Shown piece after piece: positions 1,667 to 58,360 of a DNA stretch of 64,000 bases (positions within the stretch are counted from its first letter, which is position 1; every line of letters begins with the position of its first letter). Location: contig MFEY01000007.1 in assembly GCA_001780035.1 (NCBI GenBank), forward strand, positions 331,146-395,145, read 5' to 3'. The DNA is from Candidatus Doudnabacteria bacterium RIFCSPHIGHO2_12_FULL_48_16. Lineage in GTDB: Bacteria; Patescibacteriota; Doudnabacteria; UBA920; O2-02-FULL-48-8. Below the pieces are notes generated by a model, which saw only the letters and a list, made by a program, of their open reading frames with translations, searched no databases and was not told where the DNA came from. The translations under genes and the position numbers were made by a program.

Positions 1667-2908
1667 ATGTTTACTTTTCACCCCGATCAAAAAATACTCA
1701 ACCGCTACGCGCAAGTTCTCGTCCGGTTTGCCCTCGGTGGCGGGAAGGGCATCAAACGCGGAGAAGTCGTCCGCGTCAGCGCCAACGAATCAGCCCGGCC
1801 GCTATTTTTGGCTGTGTGCAACGCTGTCGTCGACGCGGGTGGCCATGTCATCTCCCACTACGCGCCGGATGATGAACAAGGCGACAAGCGCCGCAATGAA
1901 AGCTATACCCGATATTTTTATGAACAAGCGGAACAGCATCAATTGGATTTTTTTCCGGACAAATATCTTAAAGGTTTGATGAACCAGATGGATCACTCAA
2001 TCTTCCTGCTCTCAACCAATGATCCCCATGCCCTCCGGGGAGTGGACCCGAAAAAAATTATGCGTCGTGGCGTCGCCCTCAAACCGTTTATGGATTGGCG
2101 AAATGAAAAAGAGTGGGCCGGGAAATTTACTTGGACCATTGCCTTGTATGGCACGGCCGCCATGGCCGCCGAAGCCGGGCTGTCAGAAAAAGCATATTGG
2201 AATCAAATCATCAAGGCGTGCTTCCTGGATCACCCCAATCCGGTCGCGAAATGGAAACAAATTTACCGCGAATTAGAAAAATATCGAACCAAGCTCAACA
2301 AGCTCGCACCCCAGACCGAATCGCTCCACGCGGTGGGGCCAGATATGGATTTATGGGTCAAGCTGGGCGAGAAACGCCAGTGGCTCGGCGGCAGCGGGCG
2401 CAATATTCCCAGTTTTGAGCTCTTTACTTCGCCGGATTGGCGCGGCACCGAGGGCTGGATTCGCTTCAACCAACCCCTCTATCGCTATAGCAATAAAATT
2501 ACCGGCATCCAACTGTGGTTTAAAAACGGCCGGGTGGTGAAAAGCTCCGCCAAGTCGAATGAAAAATTGTTAAAACAAATGATCGCGACTCCGGGCGCAG
2601 ACCGGATTGGTGAATACTCTTTGACTGACCGGCGGTTTTCCCGCATCACCAAATTTATGGCGGAAACCCTCTTCGATGAAAATATGGGCGGTCCTCAAGG
2701 CAACACCCACCTCGCTCTCGGCATGTCCTATCGGGACACCTATGCCGGCGACGCCGCGAAGCTGACCAAAAAACAAGCTCTGGCGCTGGGATTTAACGAC
2801 TCCTCGGTGCATACGGATATCATCTCCACCACCCCTCGTGTTGTCACCGCGCACCTCAAAAACGGCTCCCGCAAAATTATTTACGCCAATGGCCAATTTG
2901 TCTTGTAA
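1667..2908 (+). CDS. aminopeptidase, M29 (AmpS/PepS) family
   Basis: 413 aa; IPSFELFTSPD, IGEYSLTD, ETLFDENMGG, THLALG, SVHTDII motifs as in thermophilic metalloprotease M29. Confidence 0.8.
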   Translation: MFTFHPDQKILNRYAQVLVRFALGGGKGIKRGEVVRVSANESARPLFLAVCNAVVDAGGHVISHYAPDDEQGDKRRNESYTRYFYEQAEQHQLDFFPDKYLKGLMNQMDHSIFLLSTNDPHALRGVDPKKIMRRGVALKPFMDWRNEKEWAGKFTWTIALYGTAAMAAEAGLSEKAYWNQIIKACFLDHPNPVAKWKQIYRELEKYRTKLNKLAPQTESLHAVGPDMDLWVKLGEKRQWLGGSGRNIPSFELFTSPDWRGTEGWIRFNQPLYRYSNKITGIQLWFKNGRVVKSSAKSNEKLLKQMIATPGADRIGEYSLTDRRFSRITKFMAETLFDENMGGPQGNTHLALGMSYRDTYAGDAAKLTKKQALALGFNDSSVHTDIISTTPRVVTAHLKNGSRKIIYANGQFVL

Positions 2909-19891: not shown

Positions 19892-19941
19892 TTCCGACCT
19901 CGACAAAGTCGAGCGTCGGAACTCCGACCGAAGCGTCGGAG
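19892..19941. repeat. two-hairpin TTCCGAC/GTCGGAA module (copy 1)
   Basis: TTCCGAC-CTCGAC-AAA-GTCGAG-C-GTCGGAA then CTCCGAC-CGAAGC-GTCGGAG; shares TTCCGACC, GCGTCGGAAC and (opposite strand) CCGACGCTTCGG with 32170-32304. Confidence 0.75.
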
Positions 19942-31322: not shown

Positions 31323-32006
31323 TTATTCAATGCTACTTTCGATGGCGACCAGATCGTTGTAAACGGATTTGTTATTGTTAACCCAATGATCACCCGGCGG
31401 TTGCTTGTAGAGCCCATTCATGCGTTCAAAACTCATTTGGGAATATTTGACCGTAGACCGCAGTGGATATTTGTTTAAGAACCGATTCATGGCGATGACG
31501 CCTTCGCCCAAGTTGTCGCCCATGTCCCAGAGGTCTGAGCCCCCCACCCCCCAGCAATTGGCTTTGTCCAAAGGGTAGCGCCGACAGAGCGTGCTTTCGG
31601 CATTGGCCAGAGCGGTGATTTTTTTCCAGTTGCGCAGGCTGACCAAAGTCGAAGCATAAGGCGCGAGTGGCGAGCGCTGGGAGGCCAGGTAAGCGCCGAC
31701 TGCCGTAGCGAGCTTCTGCTGCCGGATCGCCTGCTGCACCGCCTGCCGCTGATAATACTCGTCGGTTAAGTCTTGGTTTAGCTGGGAGAGGTAATCTTCA
31801 TAGTCGGAAATCCCGGATTCAAAAACCAGGGCCGGACCCAATTCGGGCGCTAGCAACGGCGGCTGGGCATAAGTGACATGCGGCACCAGCGTTGCCAAAA
31901 GCCCCAGCAAAAAGAGGGTAAGTGAAAACTTATGGCGCAGGGCCAGTGTGTTAAAGCTGGCTTTCAGCGGATAATTTTTTATTTTACGAACAATGTCTAT
32001 GTCCAT
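31323..32006 (-). CDS. hypothetical secreted protein
   Basis: 227 aa; N-terminal TM/signal (FSLTLFLLGLLATLVPHVTYA). Confidence 0.5.
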   Translation of the reverse strand: MDIDIVRKIKNYPLKASFNTLALRHKFSLTLFLLGLLATLVPHVTYAQPPLLAPELGPALVFESGISDYEDYLSQLNQDLTDEYYQRQAVQQAIRQQKLATAVGAYLASQRSPLAPYASTLVSLRNWKKITALANAESTLCRRYPLDKANCWGVGGSDLWDMGDNLGEGVIAMNRFLNKYPLRSTVKYSQMSFERMNGLYKQPPGDHWVNNNKSVYNDLVAIESSIE

Positions 32007-32169
32007 TTAGGATTTGTGGGGGTAATCTCAGCAGAACCGTATCAAATTTAAACTGTCGGGTCAATGCTAACATGTGGATTGTCTGTGCAGAATAAGATAT
32101 AATATTTGGAGTTTGCGGTTCAATATGGGATGGCGTCATGGCCGAGCGGTTAGGCAGAGGTTAAGTCTG

Positions 32170-32304
32170 CCCCGACGCTTCGGCCGGGGTTCCGACCCAA
32201 AATTTTGGACTTGGTCTGGTGGCCGAGCGGTTAGGCAGAGGTCTGCAAAACCTCGTACACCGGTTCAACTCCGGTCCAGACCTCCAAAATTTTGGCGTCG
32301 GAAC
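32170..32304 (+). repeat. two-hairpin TTCCGAC/GTCGGAA module (copy 2) carrying a tRNA as cargo
   Basis: UUCG-capped hairpin 32170-32189; stem TTCCGAC 32190-96 / GTCGGAA 32297-303; 12-nt palindrome CCAAAATTTTGG at 32197-208 and 32284-95 flanks the inner tRNA. Confidence 0.75.
32213..32286 (+). tRNA. tRNA-Cys (GCA), intact, CCA encoded
   Basis: hand fold: GGTCTGG/CCAGACC acceptor, GAGGT-CTGCAAA-ACCTC anticodon arm, ACCGG-TTCAACT-CCGGT T arm, U73, CCA. Confidence 0.88.
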
Positions 32305-32416
32305 AAAACCTCGTACACCGGTTCAACTCCGGTTGACGCCTCCAGAATAATAAAATGTAGGTAAACGTAGGAGGATAGAGATTGTCTTTGTCTTTACCAT
32401 CAGATATACTTTTGTT

Positions 32417-32899
32417 ATGAGTAAAGACAGAAAAAAGAAGTGGACAGGAGACCAGTTAAAGAAAGCGGCACAGGAATCCTTTAGTATACGACAGGTAATC
32501 TTTAAGCTGGGTTTAATTCCTGCTGGAGGCAATTATGTTCAAATTCAAAATTATTTAAGGTCGCTTCATATTGATACATCTCATTTTAAAGGGAAGAGTT
32601 GGAATAAAGGGCTAACGGGATTAGTGCGAGCGAGTATGCCCATAGAGCAGATTCTTGTTAAAGAAAGTTATTATCAGAGTTATAAACTAAAAAAGCGTTT
32701 GTTTTCCCTCGGATTGAAGGCCAGGAAATGCGAAGAATGCGGTTGGGCAAAAACTACACCAGAAGGTCGGCTGCCACTAGAGCTAGATCATATTAATGGT
32801 AACCGTAACGACAATAGGTTAGAGAACCTAAGAGTTCTTTGTCCCAACTGCCATAGCTTGCAACCAACTCATAGAGCTAGGAACAAGAAGAAAAAATAG
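32417..32899 (+). CDS. HNH endonuclease (free-standing, homing-type)
   Basis: 160 aa; CEECGW...LELDHINGNRNDNRLENLRVLCPNCHS HNH/zinc motif. Confidence 0.85.
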   Translation: MSKDRKKKWTGDQLKKAAQESFSIRQVIFKLGLIPAGGNYVQIQNYLRSLHIDTSHFKGKSWNKGLTGLVRASMPIEQILVKESYYQSYKLKKRLFSLGLKARKCEECGWAKTTPEGRLPLELDHINGNRNDNRLENLRVLCPNCHSLQPTHRARNKKKK

Positions 32900-32907
32900 T
32901 TTTATTT

Positions 32908-32993
32908 GCCCGGGTGGTGGAATGGTATACACGCAGCACTTAAAATGCTGTGGGCGTAAGCTCTTGAGAGTTCGAATCTCTCCCCGGGCACCA
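32908..32993 (+). tRNA. tRNA-Leu (TAA)
   Basis: hand fold: GCCCGGG/CCCGGGC acceptor, CAGCA-CTTAAAA-TGCTG, long variable arm, GAGAG-TTCGAAT-CTCTC, A73 CCA. Confidence 0.88.
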
Positions 32994-33992: not shown

Positions 33993-34511
33993 ATGAACTC
34001 GGCGGATGAGCGGTTGTTAGTGGTTAAAGCACAAGGAGGCGACCGCGAAGCCATAGGGCAGCTTTGGGATCTTTTGACCCCCAAGCTTTACGGATATTTG
34101 TTAAACACCCTACGCCACCGTCCCCTCGCTGAAGATATTTTACAGTCGACCTGGCTAAAAGCGATCGAGGCACTCCCCAAATTTCAGCAGAAACATATCC
34201 GTGTCGGCTCTTGGCTGTTTGCGATTGCCCGGAATGAATGCCGGCAACATTGGCGTAAATCAAACCGAGAGGTTGGGTTGAATGCGTCCCTAAACGAATT
34301 GCCAAGCAATACCTATATCGATTCAGAGAATCAAATTTTAGTTGAACAAATGCTGGCCCCTTTATCTGAAGATGATCGGGAATTGATTCGTCTTCGATAC
34401 ATTGCCGATTTGCCCTTGAATGAAATAGCCAAAATTTTGAATCTTAATTTTGTGGCCGTCCGAGTCCGCCTCCACCGAGCTCTCACTCGGGCCAAAAGTA
34501 GCCTTAACTAA
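33993..34511 (+). CDS. ECF-type RNA polymerase sigma-70 family factor
   Basis: 172 aa; region 2 (DILQSTWLKAIE) and region 4 (LPLNEIAKILNLNFVAVRVRLHRA). Confidence 0.88.
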   Translation: MNSADERLLVVKAQGGDREAIGQLWDLLTPKLYGYLLNTLRHRPLAEDILQSTWLKAIEALPKFQQKHIRVGSWLFAIARNECRQHWRKSNREVGLNASLNELPSNTYIDSENQILVEQMLAPLSEDDRELIRLRYIADLPLNEIAKILNLNFVAVRVRLHRALTRAKSSLN

Positions 34512-36640: not shown

Positions 36641-36664
36641 GGGTTAAGTCAAAGTGTGCTAGAA

Positions 36665-36710: not shown

Positions 36711-36796
36711 GCGCGGGTGGCGAAATGGCAGACGCACTACCTTGAGGTGGTAGCGCCCGCAAGGGCATGGAGGTTCGACTCCTCTCCCGCGCACCA
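36711..36796 (+). tRNA. tRNA-Leu (GAG)
   Basis: hand fold: GCGCGGG/CCCGCGC acceptor, CTACC-TTGAGGT-GGTAG, long variable arm, CCA encoded. Confidence 0.88.
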
Positions 36797-36798
36797 GA

Positions 36799-36875
36799 GG
36801 ACGCTTAGCTCAGTTGGTTAGAGCGTCTCGTTTACACCGAGAAGGTCGAAGGTTCGAATCCTTCAGCGTCCACCA
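36799..36875 (+). tRNA. tRNA-Val (TAC)
   Basis: hand fold: GGACGCT/AGCGTCC acceptor, TCTCG-TTTACAC-CGAGA, GAAGG-TTCGAAT-CCTTC, CCA. Confidence 0.9.
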
Positions 36876-36903
36876 GAAAAATTGCTATAATAAGAATCCG
36901 CGA

Positions 36904-36978
36904 GCCTCGGTAGCTCAGTGGTAGAGCGCAGCCCTGAAGAGGCTGGCGTCGTCAGTTCGATTCTGACCCGAGGCACCA
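36904..36978 (+). tRNA. tRNA-Phe (GAA)
   Basis: hand fold: GCCTCGG/CCGAGGC acceptor, CAGCC-CTGAAGA-GGCTG, GTCAG-TTCGATT-CTGAC, CCA. Confidence 0.9.
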
Positions 36979-36987
36979 AAATAACGA

Positions 36988-37061
36988 GCAGGTATGGTTT
37001 AATGGTAGAACGCTTCCTTGCCAAGGAAGGGGTGGGGGTTCGATTCCCCCTACCTGCTCCA
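36988..37061 (+). tRNA. tRNA-Gly (GCC)
   Basis: hand fold: GCAGGTA/TACCTGC acceptor, CTTCC-TTGCCAA-GGAAG, GGGGG-TTCGATT-CCCCC, CCA. Confidence 0.88.
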
Positions 37062-47613: not shown

Positions 47614-47687
47614 CGGGATGTAGTATACCGGTAGTACACGCGCTTCGGGTGCGTGAAGACCGGGTTCGATTCCCGGCATCCCGACCA
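47614..47687 (+). tRNA. tRNA-Pro (CGG)
   Basis: hand fold: CGGGATG/CATCCCG acceptor, CGCGC-TTCGGGT-GCGTG, CCGGG-TTCGATT-CCCGG, A73 CCA. Confidence 0.85.
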
Positions 47688-47697
47688 AAAGACGCTC

Positions 47698-47799
47698 GGA
47701 CCTTGCAAAATTACCGGTTGTCGAAATTTAATTAAATTTCGCAACCTGCGTTCTCGACCCGCTTAAAGCGGGTCTGCGAAGGCTAATTTTGCAAGGTCC
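47698..47799. repeat. 102-nt element with perfect 16-bp terminal inverted repeats and two internal hairpins
   Basis: GGACCTTGCAAAATTA (47698-713) / TAATTTTGCAAGGTCC (47784-799); inner GGTTGTCGAAATTT-AATT-AAATTTCGCAACC and GACCCGCT-TAA-AGCGGGTC. Confidence 0.6.
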
Positions 47800-47816
47800 T
47801 CGCTGAAAGCAATTAT

Positions 47817-48416
47817 ATGAAACCTTTAATACTCGGCATTAACGGCTCGCCGAACCAAAACGGCCGCGTGGAACAATATTTAAAACTGGTTTTGAAAGAG
47901 ATCGGCATAGCGGGCGGGACAACCCGGCTTTTAAATTTGCGGAAATACAAGATCTTGCCGCACCGGGGTGCGTTGAATGCCAAAAGTTATTTGGAAAAGA
48001 GCCAAGACGACATGGCTGAACTGGTAAAACAGATTTTAAGGGCCGACGGCGTCATTTTTGCCACTCCCACACACTGGTTCCATGTTTCATCGCTCATGAA
48101 ATTATTTATTGATCGACTGACTAGCCTGGAGCATTACAATTTTTTGTTGGAAGGCAAAACAGCCGGCGTGATCACTTACGGTCCGCAGGGCGGGGCGCTC
48201 AATAGCGCTATGAATCTGCTGATGATCCTGAATCAATGGGGCATGAGTGTCCCGCCATACGGAACGTTGTTTGATGAGGGCCGGCAGGACAAATGGTTTG
48301 CTAGGGACTTGAAGCTCCTAGCTAAAAACATTTTGACCCAAATAAAAATATCCCGGCAGACGAATTGGGGATACAAGGGGGCCAAGTATAAATACCGGCC
48401 GACCGAGCTGATATGA
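47817..48416 (+). CDS. NAD(P)H-dependent FMN reductase / flavodoxin-like fold protein
   Basis: 199 aa; MKPLILGINGSPN start and VIFATPTHWF motif. Confidence 0.75.
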   Translation: MKPLILGINGSPNQNGRVEQYLKLVLKEIGIAGGTTRLLNLRKYKILPHRGALNAKSYLEKSQDDMAELVKQILRADGVIFATPTHWFHVSSLMKLFIDRLTSLEHYNFLLEGKTAGVITYGPQGGALNSAMNLLMILNQWGMSVPPYGTLFDEGRQDKWFARDLKLLAKNILTQIKISRQTNWGYKGAKYKYRPTELI

Positions 48417-48507
48417 GCAGAATTTTTTTCGTAGAGCCGTTATAAGTATTTACAAATCCGCCAAAAATCTATAAAATAAAGTGCAAGTTCACTCGGTGAG
48501 GATTGTA

Positions 48508-48582
48508 GCCCTCGTAGCTCAACGGATAGAGCCGGCGCGTCCTAAGCGCACGATGGGGGTTCAATTCCCTCCGGGGGCACCA
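48508..48582 (+). tRNA. tRNA-Arg (CCT)
   Basis: hand fold: GCCCTCG/CGGGGGC acceptor, GGCGC-GTCCTAA-GCGCA (27:43 mismatch), GGGGG-TTCAATT-CCCTC, A73 CCA. Confidence 0.78.
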
Positions 48583-48601
48583 CAAGGAAAATATTATTTT
48601 A

Positions 48602-48677
48602 GGGCCCATAGCTCATTTGGTAGAGCGCTTCCATGGCATGGAAGAGGTGACCGGTTCGAGCCCGGTTGGGTCCACCA
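48602..48677 (+). tRNA. tRNA-Ala (GGC)
   Basis: hand fold: GGGCCCA acceptor with G3:U70, CTTCC-ATGGCAT-GGAAG, ACCGG-TTCGAGC-CCGGT, A73 CCA. Confidence 0.85.
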
Positions 48678-48698
48678 AAATAATAAGTTAACAAACTT

Positions 48699-48869
48699 AT
48701 GAAGAAGTTATTTTACGGTTCGATGTTCTTGACGATTGCGTCACTGGTTATTGGCATGTTTAGTTTCGATAACTTTCGGGATCGAGTATATTTAGCTGCG
48801 ATGTTGTTGGGTTTTATATCAATTTTTGCCGGGCTGGAATATTTAATCAGAAATGCAAATAAGAAATAG
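48699..48869 (+). CDS. small membrane protein (56 aa)
   Basis: hand translation MKKLFYGSMFLTIASLVIGMFSFDNFRDRVYLAAMLLGFISIFAGLEYLIRNANKK, two TM; preferred over the antisense 69-aa tracked ORF. Confidence 0.4.
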   Translation: MKKLFYGSMFLTIASLVIGMFSFDNFRDRVYLAAMLLGFISIFAGLEYLIRNANKK

Positions 48870-48922
48870 TCAGAGAAAAACAACCCAATTACGGGCTGTT
48901 TTTTAAATGCTAAAATAGTCAT

Positions 48923-49564
48923 ATGAAATTCCCGACGTTCGTTTATGAAACCAAAAAATATAAAGAGGGGCTTTTCTTTGTTGCCGGGTGCGATGAAGTC
49001 GGGCGGGGGCCATTAGCTGGACCAGTCGTGGCCGCGACCGTGATCCTGGATCCGCTCTCGATCGGCAAGCAGCGGTCCAAAACCAAATGGTGGTATCGGG
49101 TGCGCGATTCCAAGACCGTGAATGAGCGGGAGCGCAGCGAACTGGAGCGGTTTATCAAAGATCATTGTCTGGATTTTGCCATTGCCGAAGTCTCGCATGA
49201 AACAATTGATGAAATCAACATTCACCAGGCTGGGATGCTGGCCATGCGCAAATCGGTTGATGGCCTGAAACCAAAACCGGATTTTTTATTTCTCGACGGC
49301 CGGCATACGATCAGGGGTTTGGATATGAAACAGGAAGCAGTGATTCAGGGCGATACAAAAATTTTGTCGATCGCGGCCGCCTCGATAATCGCCAAAGTCG
49401 CCCGGGACAAAATTCTTGGACAGCTTCATGCGATTTACCCACAGTATGGTTTTGGCAAGCACAAAGGCTACCCGACGCGGCAACACCGCGAGGCGATTCT
49501 AAAATTTGGCGTCCTGCCCGTGCATCGCCGCAGCTTTGCCTTCGTGAAACAATGTTTGCGATGA
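48923..49564 (+). CDS. rnhB: ribonuclease HII
   Basis: 213 aa; GCDEVGRGPLAGPVVAA and SIIAKV motifs. Confidence 0.93.
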   Translation: MKFPTFVYETKKYKEGLFFVAGCDEVGRGPLAGPVVAATVILDPLSIGKQRSKTKWWYRVRDSKTVNERERSELERFIKDHCLDFAIAEVSHETIDEINIHQAGMLAMRKSVDGLKPKPDFLFLDGRHTIRGLDMKQEAVIQGDTKILSIAAASIIAKVARDKILGQLHAIYPQYGFGKHKGYPTRQHREAILKFGVLPVHRRSFAFVKQCLR

Positions 49565-49743
49565 AACTTGCCAATCATTGAAACAAGAGCAATTTTCGGC
49601 TATCATTTATGGGCTTGGAGAGGTCGCAGATGCCGCCTCCGGCGGCACCCCGCCTTCATTAGAATTAATCGAGGTGGCGGTGGGTGGCCACCGCATTATG
49701 CGGGGTCCCGCCTACGTCTAATAAATAGTAATGGCGGGATCGA

Positions 49744-49989
49744 ATGAGATTTTACGCATATATTCTCAAAAGCCAGAAGCACGGCAGATATTATGTTGGA
49801 TCAACAAATGATCTTCAAGATCGATTGAAAAGACATAACGCCGGTTATAATAAATCAACCAAGGATGGCGTTCCTTGGGAACTAGTCTATAGTGAAACTT
49901 TTTTGACGAAGCAAGAAGCATACAAAAGAGAATTAAAAATAAAAAGTTATAAGGGCGGTGAAGCCTTTAAGCGCTTGATAAATTTATAA
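49744..49989 (+). CDS. GIY-YIG nuclease family protein (small, stand-alone)
   Basis: 81 aa; FYAYILKS...GRYYVGSTNDLQDRLKRHN GIY-YIG motif. Confidence 0.85.
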   Translation: MRFYAYILKSQKHGRYYVGSTNDLQDRLKRHNAGYNKSTKDGVPWELVYSETFLTKQEAYKRELKIKSYKGGEAFKRLINL

Positions 49990-49993
49990 ATAC

Positions 49994-50083
49994 GGAAGCG
50001 TGGCCGAGTGGTTGAAGGCACGGCTCTCGAAAAGCCGCAGAGGTGAAAGCCTCTCGTGAGTTCGAATCTCACCGCTTCCGCCA
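49994..50083 (+). tRNA. tRNA-Ser (CGA)
   Basis: hand fold: GGAAGCG/CGCTTCC acceptor, CGGCT-CTCGAAA-AGCCG, long variable arm, GTGAG-TTCGAAT-CTCAC, G73 CCA. Confidence 0.88.
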
Positions 50084-52767: not shown

Positions 52768-53885
52768 TGAAAACCAAAATTTTGGTTTTATGCACCTCGG
52801 TGGGCGGTGGGATCAAATCCACGGCTGACAATGTCGCCGAGCAGCTCAATTTGTCCGGCCGTTATGAGACGCGGGTCGAAGACGTGGAAAAAGTTGAACG
52901 CGGAGTCGTCACTTCCATCATCCGCTCCGGCACGGTTGGCATGTTAAATCACATGCCTTGGCTGTGGGGATTTTTGTATGACGCCCAAATTATTCTGAGC
53001 CTGAGTCTGCCGCTGCGCAAAGTATTGGCTTCGTTTAAATCCAAGCACGTATTGGAGCTGCTGCGCTCCTGGCAGCCGGCAATCGTGATCTCCACCGGCG
53101 TCAACCCGTCCGCCATTATGGCGTATTTGAAATCCAAGGGTCTATATCGCGGCAAATTCGTGACTGTGTTTTCGGATTACCATGTCCAGAGGTTTTGGCT
53201 GCATCGCGAAACGGATTTGTTTGTCTGCAACGTCCCAGAGCAGATTTCCGAGCTAAAACGCTTGGGATATGGCGAAGTGCCAGCCGTCCTAACCGGCACC
53301 CTGATTGCCCAAAAGTTCCACCGGCCGCTTAGCCGGGATCTCGCCCGCGATCAACTGGGCCTGCTCAAGAGTATGCCCCTGGTCCTGGTCGGCGGAGCGG
53401 GCAAAACCCGATCCAGCATGCGAGAAGTGTTCCATCAGCTGCTGCGGAGCTCTCAATCGTTCCAGGTCGTAGCGCTGTGCGGCAGTAATCAGACGTTGAA
53501 GGAGGAGTTGGCCCAAATTTCCGCGCCGGATCGGCACCCGGTAAAAATTTTGGGCTTCATCGGTAACATGGATGTCTGGATGGCGGCCAGTGAAGTTTTG
53601 GTTTACAAAACCGGCGGGCCGAGCATGGCCGAAGCTGTGGCCAAAAAGCTGCCGATTGTTTTCGTCGATGTCCGGCCCGGCCACGAACAGAAAAATTTGG
53701 AATATTTGACAGACCATGGCATTGGGGTTTATGCTCGCAGCCCGCGGGAAGCCCAGCATTGGGTCGAGGAAATTTTGGCTCATCGGCTGAAATTTAACCA
53801 TGAAAAAAGTTTCCAGACCATTGTGCGGCCGCCCGGCGCGATTGCCTTAATCGAGGCGATTGACAGGTTGCATCCGAAAGATTAG
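52767..53885 (+). CDS. glycosyltransferase (MGDG synthase/GT28-like)
   Basis: 372 aa; N-terminal MKTKILVLCTSVGGG and C-terminal GT-B pattern. Confidence 0.6.
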   Translation: MKTKILVLCTSVGGGIKSTADNVAEQLNLSGRYETRVEDVEKVERGVVTSIIRSGTVGMLNHMPWLWGFLYDAQIILSLSLPLRKVLASFKSKHVLELLRSWQPAIVISTGVNPSAIMAYLKSKGLYRGKFVTVFSDYHVQRFWLHRETDLFVCNVPEQISELKRLGYGEVPAVLTGTLIAQKFHRPLSRDLARDQLGLLKSMPLVLVGGAGKTRSSMREVFHQLLRSSQSFQVVALCGSNQTLKEELAQISAPDRHPVKILGFIGNMDVWMAASEVLVYKTGGPSMAEAVAKKLPIVFVDVRPGHEQKNLEYLTDHGIGVYARSPREAQHWVEEILAHRLKFNHEKSFQTIVRPPGAIALIEAIDRLHPKD

Positions 53886-56437: not shown

Positions 56438-58360
56438 ATGGATATCTCAACTTTATCGAAGCAACTGAATATGTCCTCGCAGCAGCTGCGCTACAAGATC
56501 CGCGAAGCGGGATTTTTCGTCTCGCCCAAGGCCAACAAAATCGACAACCAGCTGGCGAAACAGATTTTGAATTCCTTAAGCCAGAAGAAGCCCGAAACCG
56601 GCGTTCCCGCTGAACCCAAGGACGTGTCCCTCCCTAAGGTCCTGTCAGTCAAAGAGCTGGCCGCCAAATTGGGACTCGACATTACGGTCGTGATCAAAAA
56701 ATTGATCCAAAACGGCGTCATGGCCACGATTAACGAAGAAATCGACTATGATACGGCCGCCATCGTGGCCGGGGATTTGGGATTCAATGTTTCGGAAGTG
56801 CAGGAAGCCACGACGCGGTTGGGGCTGGGCTATATTGCCGATGAAATGAAAAAAGAGCAGGCCGTCAATCCGGAAACTTTTATTGTCCGGCCGCCGATTG
56901 TAGCCATCATGGGCCACGTCGACCACGGTAAAACGACATTACTCGATACGATGCGCAACACCAAGGTGGTCGACACAGAAGCCGGCCGGATTACCCAGCA
57001 TATCGGTGCCTATCAAGTGGCGCACAACGGCAAGTTTGTCACCTTTTTGGATACGCCGGGCCATGAGGCTTTTTCCGCCATGCGCGCCCGCGGCGCCAAT
57101 GTCACGGACATGATAGTTTTGGTTGTGGCTGCGGATGACGGCGTCAAGCCGCAGACGATCGAAGTCATCAACCGGGCCAAATTGACCGCGACGCCCTTGA
57201 TCGTGGCAATTAACAAGATCGACAAGCCGGATGCCAATCTCGAGCGCGTCAAAAAAGAACTGGCGGACTTTGGTGTCTTGATTGAAGAATGGGGCGGCAC
57301 CACTCCGGTGGCCAAAATTTCCGCCCTAACCGGCCAAGGCGTGGATGATCTGTTGGATTTGATTTTGCTCCAGGCCGAAGTCATGGATTTGAAAGCCAAT
57401 CCAACGGGCCAAACTATGGGCACCGTGATCGAGGCGCATTTGTCCCGAACTTTGGGGCCGGTGGCCACCGTGATTGTCCAGAACGGGACTCTGAGCCTGT
57501 CCGATATTGTGGCGGCCGGCAAGGCCTTTGGGAAAATCCGATCAATGATCGACGCGCGGGGCGCTAAGCTCAAAACCGCGCCGCCGTCGCGCGCGCTGCG
57601 AATCAGCGGAATTTCCGACGTACCGCAGGCCGGTGACATTTTGAAGACTTACGCGACTTTGGATGAAGCCAAAATCCAGGCCACGGCCGTGGCCCGGGGC
57701 GAGCGCGCGAAAAAATTTGCGACCACGAAGCAGCTGGCCTTTGCCGGCAAGGATCTGAATTTGATTATCAAAGTCGACGTGCTCGGCAGCCTCGAGGCAA
57801 TCAATGATGCCTTATCCAAACTTAAAAATACGGAAGTCAAAATCAATGTTTTGGATGAAGGCGCCGGCGAAGTCAACGAAAACGACGTGTTGCGGGCCGA
57901 TTCGGCCAGCGGCGTGATCATCGGTTTCCATACCAAAGTCAGCAGCCAAGCGGCGAAACTCGCCCAGGCCAAAGGCGTGACAATTCAGACTTACGATGTG
58001 ATTTACGAACTGATTGAAGACATCACCCGCCAGGTCGTGGACATGCTGACGCCGGAAGTGTTGCGCACGGATCTGGGTCGGGCCAAAATTTTGGCCATTT
58101 TCCGCACGGAAAAAGACAGCATGATTATCGGCGGCAATGTCGCGGAAGGCAAAATCAAGGACGGGGCGGAATTTGAAATCAAACGCGGGGACGAAATCGT
58201 CGGCAAGGGTCTCGTCACCCAGCTGCAGCAAAATAAGATCAAAACCAAAGAAGTCCTCCATGGCTCGGAATTTGGCGCCAACGTCAAAACCGCGACCAAA
58301 ATCGAGGCCGGGGACGTGCTGGTATTGTTTGAGGAAAGCGTCCGCAAGAAAACTTTATAG
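56438..58360 (+). CDS. infB: translation initiation factor IF-2
   Basis: 640 aa; G domain GHVDHGKTTLLD, DTPGH, NKID. Confidence 0.96.
   Translation: MDISTLSKQLNMSSQQLRYKIREAGFFVSPKANKIDNQLAKQILNSLSQKKPETGVPAEPKDVSLPKVLSVKELAAKLGLDITVVIKKLIQNGVMATINEEIDYDTAAIVAGDLGFNVSEVQEATTRLGLGYIADEMKKEQAVNPETFIVRPPIVAIMGHVDHGKTTLLDTMRNTKVVDTEAGRITQHIGAYQVAHNGKFVTFLDTPGHEAFSAMRARGANVTDMIVLVVAADDGVKPQTIEVINRAKLTATPLIVAINKIDKPDANLERVKKELADFGVLIEEWGGTTPVAKISALTGQGVDDLLDLILLQAEVMDLKANPTGQTMGTVIEAHLSRTLGPVATVIVQNGTLSLSDIVAAGKAFGKIRSMIDARGAKLKTAPPSRALRISGISDVPQAGDILKTYATLDEAKIQATAVARGERAKKFATTKQLAFAGKDLNLIIKVDVLGSLEAINDALSKLKNTEVKINVLDEGAGEVNENDVLRADSASGVIIGFHTKVSSQAAKLAQAKGVTIQTYDVIYELIEDITRQVVDMLTPEVLRTDLGRAKILAIFRTEKDSMIIGGNVAEGKIKDGAEFEIKRGDEIVGKGLVTQLQQNKIKTKEVLHGSEFGANVKTATKIEAGDVLVLFEESVRKKTL

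What the first reader, a model, noticed from the sequence alone, without database searches (positions are those of the whole stretch)
32132..32344. Nested tRNA locus: an intact tRNA-Cys inside a hairpin element inside the anticodon loop of a second tRNA-Cys-like gene
**Outer gene (seen directly).** Its halves are 32132-32170 and 32305-32344. They supply complementary acceptor strands (GGCGTCA / TGACGCC), a D arm, GAGGT/ACCTC anticodon-stem strands, a T arm, U73 and CCA.
- The loop letters CTGC and AAA are separated by 134 nt, inserted between C35 and A36.
- An extra TAAGT sits between the stem and the loop.

**Insert (seen directly).**
- A UUCG-capped hairpin at 32170-32189.
- A perfect 7-bp stem, TTCCGAC (32190-96) with GTCGGAA (32297-303).
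- Two copies of the 12-nt palindrome CCAAAATTTTGG (32197-208 and 32284-95). They directly flank a complete 74-nt tRNA-Cys(GCA) at 32213-32286, whose CCA is the start of the right-hand copy.

**Inner versus outer tRNA.** The two are 100% identical over the 24-nt D-arm/anticodon-stem segment and the 29-nt anticodon-stem/variable/T-arm segment. Their acceptor stems differ at 4 of 7 base pairs, and every change is compensated on the other strand (GGTCTGG/CCAGACC versus GGCGTCA/TGACGCC).

**Inference.** An identical body with orthogonal acceptor helices is what would let both cloverleaf parts fold in one precursor. It does not look like random decay of a dead gene. I see two possible readings:
- A resident tRNA-Cys was killed by a small element that carries its own replacement tRNA.
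- The locus gives one precursor in which RNase P and 3' processing release the inner tRNA. That would leave two outer halves held together by the 7-bp stem plus the palindrome, which is geometrically like the split tRNAs of Nanoarchaeum. I know of no such arrangement described in bacteria.
Basis: partly seen in the sequence, partly recalled or inferred. Interest (0 to 1): 0.85.

Follow-up and report, generated by a model that had tools for sequence, protein, structure and literature searches.

The report
tRNA gene nested inside broken tRNA
In an uncultured ultra-small bacterium (Candidatus Doudnabacteria), a 134-base hairpin repeat element carrying its own cysteine tRNA gene sits in the anticodon of the resident cysteine tRNA gene, so the element breaks an essential gene and supplies the replacement.

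Summary
Window 32132-32344 holds two halves of a tRNA-Cys gene around a 134-nt insert that contains an intact tRNA-Cys(GCA). The 213-nt core is byte-identical in at least 7 assemblies, so it is not an assembly artefact.

The outer gene is the ancestral resident gene. Joined without the extra TAAGT, its halves are 74/74 identical to the intact tRNA-Cys of the closest relative. Ten other Doudnabacteria species have an uninterrupted gene at this locus.

A distant Doudnabacteria contig (L142) carries the same nested architecture. It has the same inner acceptor stem and a near-identical frame, but a different inner body and no HNH gene.

The frame belongs to a Doudnabacteria-specific double-hairpin repeat family: 5 copies in 145 kb, none in 825 kb of other phyla. 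Its sites are filled or empty by lineage and its stems covary. The tRNA is the cargo of one member.

The outer gene is dead, because both loci carry a second lesion at the anticodon-loop edge. The identical bodies in the window are best explained by gene conversion.

The closest concept is phage tRNA-dependent lysogeny. How the element moves is unknown.

The parts
32098..32103 (+). TATAAT box 28 nt upstream of the outer tRNA-Cys 5' end; presumed promoter for the whole nested unit
   Evidence: Read from the sequence. L142 and L134 also have a TATAAT 16-20 nt upstream of the gene. The consensus scan found no promoter-like site inside 32132-32344. Its function is inferred.
32132..32161 (+). Outer (ancestral) tRNA-Cys 5' part: acceptor 5' strand GGCGTCA, D arm and anticodon-stem 5' strand GAGGT
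   Evidence: Identical to positions 1-30 of the intact tRNA-Cys in L134, L117, L023 and L137.
32162..32166 (+). Second lesion: 5 extra bases (TAAGT) between the anticodon stem and the loop of the outer gene
   Evidence: Absent from all intact orthologues. L142 has a different 9-10-nt insertion at the same spot.
32167..32169 (+). CTG: C32, U33 and G34 of the outer anticodon loop
   Evidence: Comparison with the native sequence GGTCTGCAAAACC.
32170..32303 (+). Inserted element (134 nt): pyrimidine, hairpin 1, one base, then stem 2 enclosing the cargo
   Evidence: Boundaries are taken from the other family members. The same element with 2 substitutions and 1 indel in its non-tRNA parts is found in L142.
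32171..32188 (+). Hairpin 1 of the element (CCCGAC-GCTTCG-GCCGGG; one A.C mismatch here)
   Evidence: Family consensus is TCCGACGCTTCGGTCGGA. Its first pair covaries, T-A versus C-G.
32190..32196 (+). Stem 2, 5' arm (TTCCGAC)
   Evidence: Pairs with 32297-32303. The arms covary between copies: TT/AA, CC/GG, TC/GA.
32197..32208 (+). Left copy of the palindrome CCAAAATTTTGG; with the right copy it extends stem 2 by 12 bp
   Evidence: Identical in L142.
32213..32286 (+). Inner tRNA-Cys(GCA), the functional gene: acceptor GGTCTGG/CCAGACC, U73, encoded CCA
   Evidence: ARAGORN and Rfam at 60.8 bits. The L142 counterpart keeps all stems through 2 compensatory changes and 1 wobble change.
32284..32295 (+). 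Right copy of the palindrome; its CCA is the 3' end of the inner tRNA
32297..32303 (+). Stem 2, 3' arm (GTCGGAA), preceded by a bulged C at 32296
   Evidence: The bulged C is also present in the L136 and L142 copies.
32304..32344 (+). Outer tRNA-Cys 3' part: C35, the rest of the loop, anticodon-stem 3' strand, variable loop, T arm, acceptor 3' strand TGACGCC, U73 and CCA
   Evidence: Identical to the 3' part of the intact L134 gene.
19892..19941 (-). tRNA-free member of the same repeat family, lying between the convergent tyrS and ruvC genes
   Evidence: On the minus strand it reads C TCCGACGCTTCGGTCGGA G TTCCGAC G CTCGACTTTGTCGAG GTCGGAA. Flanking genes were identified by Pfam. No family member lies in this interval in L150.
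32417..32899 (+). Free-standing HNH endonuclease gene in the tRNA-Cys/tRNA-Leu spacer; a neighbour that is not part of the nested element
   Evidence: Pfam HNH_3/HNH. Its closest homologues all sit in the same slot, and the slot is empty in seven other loci (L092, L117/L150, L134, L135, L142, L145, L152). L142 has the nested element without HNH.
32908..32993 (+). tRNA-Leu(UAA), downstream partner of tRNA-Cys in all Doudnabacteria loci examined

Best explanation
A small non-coding element sits in the anticodon of the resident, presumably single-copy, tRNA-Cys gene, between G34 and C35 give or take one base. It belongs to a Doudnabacteria-specific family built as hairpin 1, one base, then stem 2. 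In this member the loop of stem 2 carries a complete foreign tRNA-Cys gene.

The resident (outer) gene is dead. Its promoter still drives transcription, so the outer 5' half and hairpin 1 form the leader of a precursor. The inner tRNA would be released from that precursor by the ordinary enzymes, RNase P at G32213 and 3' trimming at the encoded CCA. The cell now depends on the cargo tRNA.

The cargo keeps its own acceptor stem (GGTCTGG/CCAGACC). In this lineage its body has been overwritten by gene conversion from the flanking outer halves, which explains the identical body with a different acceptor stem.

Because the two acceptor stems do not match, a single crossover between the direct repeats would give a tRNA with a mismatched acceptor helix. 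The arrangement is therefore hard to lose.

Shown here: the anatomy, the ancestral status of the outer gene, a second independent instance, membership in a repeat family, stem covariation, and inactivation of the outer gene.

Inferred: transcription from the outer promoter, the processing route, gene conversion, the anti-deletion lock, and how the element moves (enzyme unknown).
For: 1. Reality of the locus. The 213-nt core is identical in at least 7 assemblies.

2. The outer gene is ancestral.
- The joined halves are 74/74 identical to the intact tRNA-Cys of L134. That genome has S1 90% identical at the amino-acid level, yet third-codon identity is only about 45%.
- The gene at the syntenic S1/p227 ... 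tRNA-Leu(UAA) locus is intact in L023, L092, L117/L150, L134, L135, L137, L139, L141, L145 and L152.

3. A second nested locus. L142 has p227 only 35% identical and no HNH gene. It shows the same order of parts, the same inner acceptor stem, and frame differences of only 2 substitutions plus 1 indel.

4. The cargo tRNA is under selection. There are 10 body differences between the two inner genes. All 3 changed stem pairs stay paired, and 2 are fully compensatory. Rfam scores are 60.8 and 54.6 bits.

5. Repeat family.
- A tRNA-free copy lies at window 19892-19941, with further copies in L136 and L117/L150.
- The count is 5 distinct copies in 145 kb of Doudnabacteria DNA against 0 in 825 kb of other phyla.
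- The site upstream of the tRNA-Leu(GAG) promoter is filled in L136 and L117 and empty in the window, L134 and L135.
- The tyrS-ruvC site is filled in the window, and no family member lies in that interval in L150.

6. Stem covariation. 96.9% of cells are paired, 3 pairs change on both sides, and 0 of 500 shuffles reach the observed score.

7. The outer gene is dead.
- Intron-aware ARAGORN does not call it.
- Removing the element leaves a 5-nt or 9-nt lesion at the loop edge.
- L142 has lost a G of the anticodon stem.

8. Gene conversion. The inner body equals the outer body in the window (0/60 differences) but differs at 8 positions in L142. At the 2 positions where the outer alleles differ between the genomes, each inner gene matches its own outer gene.

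9. No promoter-like site lies inside the unit.

10. The concept is known to work: prophages that disrupt an essential tRNA gene and carry a complementing tRNA (PMC10865867).
Against: - No transposase, recombinase or RAYT-like gene was found in the ORFs examined within about 15 kb on each side. How the family moves is unknown.
- Only two nested loci were found. They share the second lesion at the same place, so they probably descend from a single insertion event. Transposition of the tRNA-carrying member into tRNA-Cys has therefore not been seen twice.
- The patchy distribution could reflect horizontal recombination of the whole allele, or ancient origin with repeated reversion.
- The outer acceptor strands, D arm and T arm show no decay in either genome, although the junction has diverged. 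That hints at constraint on the outer halves which this model does not require.
- The rest of the genome could not be scanned, so a second tRNA-Cys gene elsewhere is not excluded.
- No expression data were available.
- No native, free-standing source of the GGTCTGG-type tRNA-Cys was found. It was absent from the 120 loci returned by the truncated scan with the shared 22-mer and from the viral contigs.
Confidence: 0.7

Rival explanations
1. The arrangement is an ancient, vertically inherited rearrangement kept as an RNA-processing scaffold, and not the product of a mobile element. The nested arrangement arose once deep in Doudnabacteria. The frame and the outer acceptor and T arms are conserved because maturation of the inner tRNA (and separation from tRNA-Leu) needs them. 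Lineages with an intact gene reverted by double-strand-break repair templated on the inner gene, or by acquiring another allele.
For: - Both nested loci share a second lesion at the same position, which argues for one origin.
- The frame and the outer halves are almost invariant between genomes whose p227 is 35% identical.
- tRNA-Cys alleles clearly turn over at this locus; L139, L141 and L145 have unrelated alleles.
- The predicted folds of both loci keep the outer acceptor and T arm plus a long stem around the inner tRNA.
Against: - The frame is demonstrably a member of a dispersed repeat family with filled and empty sites, so it did not originate as a dedicated processing scaffold.
- Ten of 12 species have the intact gene, including the two closest relatives. 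This model would need many independent precise reversions.
- Ordinary tRNA flanks do not need such structures.
Confidence: 0.15
2. The locus is a functional nested or split outer tRNA, as in the first reader's second reading. After RNase P and 3' processing release the inner tRNA, the two outer halves stay paired through the 7-bp stem and the palindrome, and are used or ligated as a second tRNA-Cys.
For: - The outer acceptor strands, D arm and T arm are intact in both nested loci.
- The fold predicts that the outer acceptor helix and T arm form.
Against: - The anticodon would be cut within GCA.
- Extra bases (5 nt or 9 nt) remain at the loop edge after removal of the element.
- The L142 anticodon stem has lost a G, and the base before the hairpin differs between the loci, C versus T.
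- There is no bulge-helix-bulge geometry, no group I core and no ribozyme hit.
- RNase P and RNase Z products (5'-phosphate, 3'-OH) are not substrates for RtcB-type ligation (established enzymology, not tested here).
- No bacterial tRNA-splicing endonuclease is known.
Confidence: 0.04
3. The locus is a scar or immunity device made by the neighbouring HNH homing endonuclease. The HNH enzyme cuts tRNA-Cys in the anticodon loop. Aberrant repair created the nested structure, which now protects the locus from re-cleavage.
For: - The HNH gene lies 72 nt downstream and behaves like a homing endonuclease gene. It occupies a fixed slot that is filled or empty by lineage.
- HNH presence goes with one tRNA-Leu allele, 5/5 against 0/6 (p = 0.002).
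- L092 has an orphan tRNA-Cys 3' half that starts at the same loop position.
Against: - L142 has the nested element and no HNH gene; its outer tRNA-Cys is 11 nt from tRNA-Leu.
- Four HNH-carrying loci (L023, L137, L139, L141) have intact tRNA-Cys genes.
- The inner tRNA in the window has the same anticodon stem-loop as the native gene, so it would not be immune.
- The allele linked to HNH is tRNA-Leu, not tRNA-Cys.
Confidence: 0.04
4. The locus is an assembly artefact, a collapse or chimera of two tRNA-Cys genes.
For: The locus contains 23-nt and 30-nt exact direct repeats, which can confuse assemblers.
Against: - The same 213 nt is recovered by different assemblers and samples.
- A diverged copy with the same order of parts exists in an unrelated metagenome.
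- The repeats are much shorter than a read.
Confidence: 0.01

Closest known systems
tRNA-dependent lysogeny of actinobacteriophages (Guerrero-Bustamante & Hatfull 2024, PMC10865867)
   Same: A mobile element inserts into an essential host tRNA gene without reconstructing it. [quoted passage not shown]
   Different: - There, the element is a 40-60-kb temperate phage with a tyrosine integrase and an attP/attB core of about 10 bp.
- Here, it is a 134-nt non-coding hairpin element with no enzyme gene.
- Here, the replacement tRNA lies inside the disrupted gene and apparently uses its promoter.
- The insertion point is within the anticodon, and the host is a CPR bacterium.
REP/REPIN and MITE-type small palindromic repeats of bacteria (for example REPINs moved by RAYT transposases, PMC3337134; the prokaryotic MITE survey, PMC11602168)
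   Same: - Short, non-coding and hairpin-forming.
- Multi-copy and mostly intergenic.
- Presence or absence differs between related genomes.
- Short inverted termini, (C/T)(T/C)CCGAC ... GTCGGRR.
- Stems are kept by compensatory change.
   Different: - No conserved GTAG motif.
- No visible target-site duplication.
- No partner transposase identified.
- One member carries a whole functional gene (a tRNA) in its second hairpin and sits inside an essential gene.
[quoted passage not shown]
   Same: The same phylum-level group, the same kind of target (a single-copy tRNA gene), an insertion point in the anticodon within one base of 35/36, and standard tRNA finders miss the interrupted gene.
   Different: - Those are self-splicing ribozymes of more than 200 nt that restore the host tRNA at the RNA level.
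- This insert has no group I core (no Rfam hit) and a C or G instead of U before the junction.
- It restores function by bringing a new gene, not by splicing.
Genomic islands and prophages integrating at tRNA genes through anticodon-loop crossover (classification recalled from K. P. Williams, NAR 2002; not re-read here)
   Same: The break falls in the anticodon loop, and the tRNA 3' half occurs as a direct repeat.
   Different: - Integrases leave attL and attR with a duplicated 3' segment flanking a large element that encodes the integrase.
- Here both halves are duplicated in nested order, at most 1 nt is duplicated at the junction, and there is no integrase.
Phage T4 SegB, a free-standing homing endonuclease in a tRNA gene cluster (PMC2330249). 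This is relevant to the neighbouring HNH gene, not to the nested element.
   Same: An endonuclease gene is lodged between tRNA genes, and the neighbouring tRNA gene appears to travel with it. Here the HNH gene goes with one tRNA-Leu(UAA) allele.
   Different: SegB is a GIY-YIG enzyme in a phage. Here the gene is an HNH gene in a bacterial chromosome. No cleavage site is known, and it is not linked to the nested tRNA, because L142 lacks it.
Archaeal split, permuted and intron-containing tRNA genes (Nanoarchaeum, Cyanidioschyzon; reviews PMC4390854, PMC3978253)
   Same: A tRNA gene is interrupted near the anticodon, with a helix that could bring the two halves together.
   Different: Those depend on a bulge-helix-bulge motif, the splicing endonuclease and a ligase, and they yield a functional tRNA. 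None of these applies here, and the outer gene carries an additional lesion.

Membership tests
Group I intron in a bacterial tRNA gene | Matches the group I intron covariance model (conserved P3-P9 catalytic core) | tested here: not met
   No Intron_gpI hit at the gathering threshold in the window, nor at E<=1 in 32000-32450 or in L142.
Group I intron in a bacterial tRNA gene | U at the last exon position and G at the last intron position | tested here: not met
   The junctions are CTG|C or CTGC| on the left and ...GTCGGAA|C on the right. The last base of the insert is A or C.
Group I intron in a bacterial tRNA gene | Located in the anticodon loop | tested here: met
   The insertion is between G34/C35 or C35/A36.
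Archaeal-type tRNA intron / split tRNA | Bulge-helix-bulge motif (3-nt bulges separated by 4 bp) at the exon-intron junctions | tested here: not met
   In the minimum-free-energy and centroid folds of both loci the junctions lie in a multiloop next to a long stem (7 bp + 12 bp + acceptor), with no BHB.
Archaeal-type tRNA intron / split tRNA | Splicing endonuclease and RNA ligase encoded by the organism | not testable with these tools
   Only 64 kb of the genome is available. None was seen among the 23 ORFs scanned against Pfam.
Integrase-mediated island at a tRNA gene | Element encodes a tyrosine or serine integrase | tested here: not met
   The insert is 134 nt, 74 of which are the tRNA, so there is no room for an ORF.
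Integrase-mediated island at a tRNA gene | attL/attR: one direct repeat of the tRNA 3' segment flanking the element, with the 5' half single | tested here: not met
   Both the 5' segment (23 nt) and the 3' segment (30 nt) are repeated, in nested order. At most 1 nt is duplicated at the junction.
Disrupt-and-complement elements (tRNA-dependent lysogeny) | Host tRNA gene is interrupted and not reconstructed | tested here: met
   The outer gene is not called even with introns allowed, and a second lesion remains after removal of the element.
Disrupt-and-complement elements (tRNA-dependent lysogeny) | [quoted passage not shown] | tested here: met
   The inner gene is tRNA-Cys(GCA) in the window and in L142.
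Disrupt-and-complement elements (tRNA-dependent lysogeny) | Element is a temperate phage that integrates by its own integrase | tested here: not met
   The element is 134 nt and non-coding. It has no match in viral contigs or in phage and plasmid records.
Disrupt-and-complement elements (tRNA-dependent lysogeny) | The disrupted tRNA is essential and single-copy, so the cargo tRNA is required | not testable with these tools
   There is only one tRNA-Cys call in the 64-kb window. The rest of the genome could not be scanned.
REP / REPIN | Short imperfect palindromes, many copies, mainly intergenic | tested here: met
   There are 5 distinct copies in 145 kb and 0 in 825 kb of other phyla. Three copies are intergenic.
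REP / REPIN | Conserved GT[AG]G tetranucleotide at the 5' end of the palindrome | tested here: not met
   The flanks next to hairpin 1 are CTAC (L136, L117), CTGC or CTGT (nested) and AAAC (19.9-kb copy).
REP / REPIN | Cognate RAYT (Y1 transposase) gene in the genome | not testable with these tools
   None was found among the ORFs scanned, but most of the genome was not seen.
MITE | Terminal inverted repeats | tested here: met
   The left end is (C/T)(T/C)CCGAC and the right end GTCGG(A/G)(A/G), complementary at 6-7 nt.
MITE | Target-site duplication | tested here: not met
   In tRNA-Cys the native sequence is known exactly, and at most one C is duplicated. At the tRNA-Leu(GAG) site the left edge is sharp but the right side is too diverged to judge.
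IS200/IS605-derived palindrome elements (PATE) | No target duplication, a subterminal hairpin, and insertion 3' of a fixed tetranucleotide | tested here: inconclusive
   The absence of a duplication and the hairpin one base from the left end fit. The left flanks CTA|, CTG| and AAA| are too few and too varied to define a target.

The most novel reading that the evidence does not exclude
The tRNA-carrying member is a dedicated, horizontally spreading gene-swap cassette. It is a non-autonomous mini-element that can invade an essential single-copy tRNA gene because it brings an orthogonal replacement.
- Its mismatched acceptor stem makes loss by simple recombination lethal, acting as an addiction lock.
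- The outer halves are retained under selection as homology arms and as a processing scaffold.

This would be a third way for an insertion in a tRNA gene to be tolerated, beside self-splicing introns and att-site reconstruction.
Probability: 0.3. Interest if true: 0.8.

Novelty: new variant of a known kind. Interest (0 to 1): 0.66.

Why it matters
- Mechanism. Insertions into single-copy tRNA genes are normally tolerated only if the element splices itself out (group I introns) or rebuilds the gene at its attachment site (integrases). Here a 134-nt non-coding element achieves the same result by carrying a whole replacement gene inside the gene it breaks. The principle has so far been described only for large prophages.
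- Annotation. The organism's only detectable tRNA-Cys has a non-native acceptor stem, and tRNA finders do not see the native gene at all.
- Mobile elements in CPR. The locus exposes a previously undescribed small hairpin repeat family in CPR bacteria, whose genomes are usually considered poor in mobile elements.
- tRNA evolution. It offers a natural example of concerted evolution between a tRNA gene and its own fragments, and of how tRNA alleles can be swapped between lineages.
- Testability. If the anti-deletion lock is real, it is a simple addiction mechanism that can be tested.

Tried and rejected
1. Hidden similarity between the non-tRNA parts of the insert and the tRNA in either orientation, or the L092 spacer. 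Local alignments against shuffles gave p = 0.08-0.69, so I rejected these eyeballed similarities.
2. The genome-collection scan with the 22-nt D-arm/anticodon-stem word. It was poor for finding nested loci but served as a control, and it yielded three Doudnabacteria orthologues (L023, L092, L117).
3. Viral contigs for the inner tRNA 5' end, the left repeat and the family consensus. There were no hits.
4. Phage and plasmid records. Only generic tRNA-Cys matches came back.
5. L143 and L144 from the metagenome scan. The match is isolated, with no tRNA and no right arm, so these are chance matches.
6. A homology search with the p227 fragment of L142 to reach its clade. It found no hits, which used the last protein search.
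7. Rfam at a permissive threshold on both loci. It returned nothing but tRNA, plus a weak tmRNA-like hit that is simply the outer T arm and acceptor.
8. A transposase search in ORFs around both family copies. None was found.
9. The other copies of CCAAAATTTTGG in the window (52774, 58083). They lie in coding sequence and are unrelated.
10. The shared 9-mer GGTTAAGTC, present at the nested junction and at the empty tRNA-Leu(GAG) upstream site of the window. The orientation does not fit transduction of a flank, so I left it as unexplained.
11. The integrase att-site model. I rejected it because the order is nested and at most 1 nt is duplicated.
Full report
**What is there**

The window is a chromosomal segment of a CPR bacterium. 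Its proteins and the 213-nt locus are identical to those of Candidatus Doudnabacteria MAGs from the Rifle aquifer (GCA_001777855.1, GCA_001777635.1).

ARAGORN and Rfam both call the inner tRNA-Cys(GCA) at 32213-32286, at 60.8 bits. Neither calls the outer gene, even when introns are allowed.

Inner and outer differ at 8 of 14 acceptor-stem positions and at none of the other 60 (p = 2e-7). The 213-nt unit folds much better than shuffled sequence (z = -7.35).

**Not an artefact**

The 213-nt core is byte-identical in at least seven contigs from different samples and assemblers. A diverged second instance exists elsewhere, described below.

**The outer gene is the ancestral resident gene**

In other Doudnabacteria the same neighbourhood (gyrA, an MBL-fold gene, an S1-domain gene, p227, then tRNA-Cys followed by tRNA-Leu(UAA)) holds a single uninterrupted tRNA-Cys. 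This is true of L023, L092, L117/L150, L134, L135, L137, L139, L141, L145 and L152.

The closest relative, L134, has S1 90% identical at the protein level, while third-codon identity is only about 45%. Its tRNA-Cys is 74/74 identical to the window's outer halves joined without TAAGT.

The inner acceptor stem GGTCTGG/CCAGACC occurs in none of these genes. It is also absent from the 120 tRNA-Cys genes that share the same D-arm word across phyla. That control also shows the tRNA-Cys body is conserved very widely while acceptor stems vary. One Lentisphaerae gene (L015) has exactly the window's body with yet another acceptor stem.

**A second nested locus**

A metagenome scan for the left repeat in a different left context returned L142. 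This 1.2-kb contig has a p227 homologue only 35% identical, followed by the same architecture and then tRNA-Leu(UAA) 11 nt later, with no HNH gene. The region-by-region comparison with the window is:

| Region | Window versus L142 |
|---|---|
| Outer 5' positions 1-28 | 0 differences |
| Junction filler | GTTAAGT versus TGAGTGAGTT |
| Base before the hairpin | C versus T |
| Hairpin | 2 substitutions |
| 7-nt arms, both palindromes, right flank | 0 differences |
| Spacer | ACTT versus ACTTT |
| Inner acceptor stem and NCCA | 0 differences |
| Inner body | 10 differences |
| Outer 3' half | 2 differences |

- All three changed stem pairs in the inner body remain paired, and two are fully compensatory. 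Both inner genes are therefore under selection as tRNAs (54.6 and 60.8 bits).
- The two differences in the outer 3' half correspond to the two native allele types seen in intact relatives, the L134 type and the L117 type.
- In L142 the inner body differs from its own outer body at 8 positions.
- At the two positions where the outer alleles differ between the genomes, each inner gene matches its local outer gene.

The simplest account is a foreign cargo tRNA whose body is progressively overwritten by gene conversion from the flanking halves. Conversion is complete in the window and partial in L142. This is an inference.

**The outer gene is dead**

Removing the element cleanly still leaves 5 extra bases (window) or 9 (L142) at the 5' edge of the anticodon loop. 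L142 has also lost a G of the anticodon stem.

A second lesion at the same position in both loci also argues that the two nested alleles descend from one insertion event.

No bulge-helix-bulge geometry appears in the predicted folds. No intron or ribozyme family matches either locus.

**The frame is a repeat element**

A permissive search for the hairpin found a second copy in the window at 19892-19941. Read on the minus strand it is C TCCGACGCTTCGGTCGGA G TTCCGAC G CTCGACTTTGTCGAG GTCGGAA. That is the same design as the insert: hairpin 1, one base, then stem 2 with the same arm sequence. Here it encloses a 15-nt mini-hairpin instead of the palindromes and tRNA. It lies between the convergent tyrS and ruvC genes.

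More members occur in L136 and in L117/L150, just upstream of the tRNA-Leu(GAG) operon promoter. That site is empty in the window, L134 and L135. Conversely, no family member lies in the tyrS-ruvC interval of L150.

The family totals five distinct copies in 145 kb of Doudnabacteria DNA and none in 825 kb from other phyla.

The stems covary between copies. Stem 2 ends are TT/AA, CC/GG or TC/GA, and the first pair of hairpin 1 is T-A or C-G. Overall 96.9% of cells are paired, and no shuffle or slid register reaches the observed score. With only five sequences this is supportive and not conclusive.

Boundaries taken from the family place the element at 32170-32303, between G34 and C35. At most one base is duplicated.

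No transposase or recombinase gene was found in the ORFs examined around either copy. The mobilising activity is unknown.

**The HNH gene is a separate story**

The ORF at 32417-32899 is an HNH endonuclease of a very large CPR-wide family. Its closest homologues (71-76% identity) all sit in the same tRNA-Cys/tRNA-Leu(UAA) spacer. Where the gene is absent the two tRNA genes are usually only 4-11 nt apart (L092 is the exception, with its 101-nt scar).

All five HNH-positive loci share one tRNA-Leu anticodon-arm allele, and none of six HNH-negative loci has it (p = 0.002, ignoring phylogeny). The window's tRNA-Leu differs by 2 nt from that of L141 but by more than 20 nt from that of its closest relative L134. 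This is the pattern expected of a free-standing homing endonuclease that co-converts its flank, as for T4 SegB (PMC2330249).

The HNH gene is not tied to the nested tRNA. L142 has the nested element without HNH, and four HNH loci have an intact tRNA-Cys.

**How it most likely works**

- Shown: a small hairpin repeat element with a tRNA-Cys cargo interrupts the resident tRNA-Cys, and the resident gene is non-functional.
- Inferred, transcription and processing: transcription starts at the resident promoter (TATAAT at 32098-32103; no promoter-like site inside the unit). The inner tRNA is cut out by RNase P and 3' processing. The long helix around it (7 bp + 12 bp + acceptor) may help to present it.
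- Inferred, stability: because the inner and outer acceptor stems do not match, a single crossover between the 23-nt or 30-nt direct repeats would produce a tRNA with a mismatched acceptor helix. Simple deletion should therefore be lethal and the arrangement is stabilised.
- L092 fits this idea. It has an intact tRNA-Cys followed by 59 nt and an orphan 3' half that starts at the same loop position. That is the topology such a crossover would leave if the two acceptor stems matched. This is suggestive only.

**Comparison with what is known**

- The closest concept is tRNA-dependent lysogeny (PMC10865867), where a prophage disrupts an essential tRNA gene and carries the complementing tRNA. The present case does the same with a 134-nt non-coding element, nested within the broken gene.
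[quoted passage not shown] This insert lies within one base of that position but is not an intron.
- Literature searches found no description of a tRNA nested in a tRNA gene, nor of this repeat family. The searchable library is limited to open-access papers.

**Open points**

- Is the nested allele spread by transposition, by recombination of the whole allele between lineages, or is it ancient with repeated reversion?
- Why do the outer acceptor, D and T arms show no decay in either genome?
- Where did the GGTCTGG-type tRNA-Cys come from?
- Which enzyme moves the family?

**Verdict**

The feature is real. It is a new variant of a known principle and of moderate to high interest.

Noticed in passing
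window 32417-32899 (HNH) and 32908-32993 (tRNA-Leu-UAA); loci L023, L137, L139, L141 compared with L092, L117, L134, L135, L142, L145: The HNH gene occupies a fixed slot between tRNA-Cys and tRNA-Leu(UAA) and is present or absent by lineage. Its presence goes with one tRNA-Leu anticodon-arm allele (CAGCA-CTTAAAA-TGCTG), 5/5 against 0/6. The window's tRNA-Leu is 2 nt from that of L141 but more than 20 nt from that of its closest relative. This looks like a free-standing homing endonuclease that co-converts, or targets, the tRNA-Leu gene.
   Followed up: partly
L092 426-526 (minus strand), between tRNA-Cys 527-599 and tRNA-Leu 340-425: An intact tRNA-Cys is followed by a 59-nt hairpin-rich spacer and an orphan copy of the tRNA-Cys 3' half. 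The copy is 38 nt, identical to the gene's own 3' half, and starts at the same anticodon-loop position (C|AAAACC) as the outer 3' half in the window. The spacer may hold a decayed anticodon-stem remnant (AGGCGGCGGTCTG, p = 0.08). It may be the collapsed form of a similar nested insertion.
   Followed up: partly
L134 6988-7152, L135 7051-7215, L145 2070-2241 and L152 3647-3811, compared with window 32132-32993 and L117: The tRNA-Cys/tRNA-Leu(UAA) pair is inverted relative to the p227 gene in several close relatives, and unrelated tRNA-Cys alleles occur in L139, L141 and L145. The locus is a hotspot for rearrangement and allele replacement.
   Followed up: no
L142 inner tRNA (L142 597-670, minus strand) and L145 tRNA-Cys 2166-2241 (minus strand): Two tRNA-Cys genes have a T-loop reading TGCAA (G at the position of the near-universal U55) together with a D-loop lacking the usual GG. 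This may be covariation of the G18-U55 tertiary contact.
   Followed up: no
window 32140-32148 with 32176-32185; the same regions in L142: The outer D-arm strand GGCCGAGCG is complementary to the loop and 3' strand of hairpin 1 (CGCTTCGGCC). The minimum-free-energy folds of both nested loci pair them. The window's T-to-C change, which weakens hairpin 1, improves this alternative pairing.
   Followed up: no
window 32158-32166 and 36641-36649 (approximate): The 9-mer GGTTAAGTC occurs at the nested junction (…GAGGTTAAGTCTG…). It also occurs at the empty insertion site upstream of the tRNA-Leu(GAG) promoter (…gtcaagGGTTAAGTCaaag…), where L136 and L117 carry a family member. The orientation does not fit simple flank transduction, so this is unexplained.
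   Followed up: no
window 52774-52785, 58083-58094 and 34430-34439: Further copies of CCAAAATTTTGG or its 10-nt core lie inside coding sequence (K-I-L codons) and are unrelated to the element.
   Followed up: yes
window 36711-37061, 47614-50083 and others: The 64-kb window holds eleven tRNA genes, most with encoded CCA. They include a Leu(GAG)-Val-Phe-Gly operon with a canonical TTGACC-17-TATAAT promoter that is conserved across Doudnabacteria.
   Followed up: no
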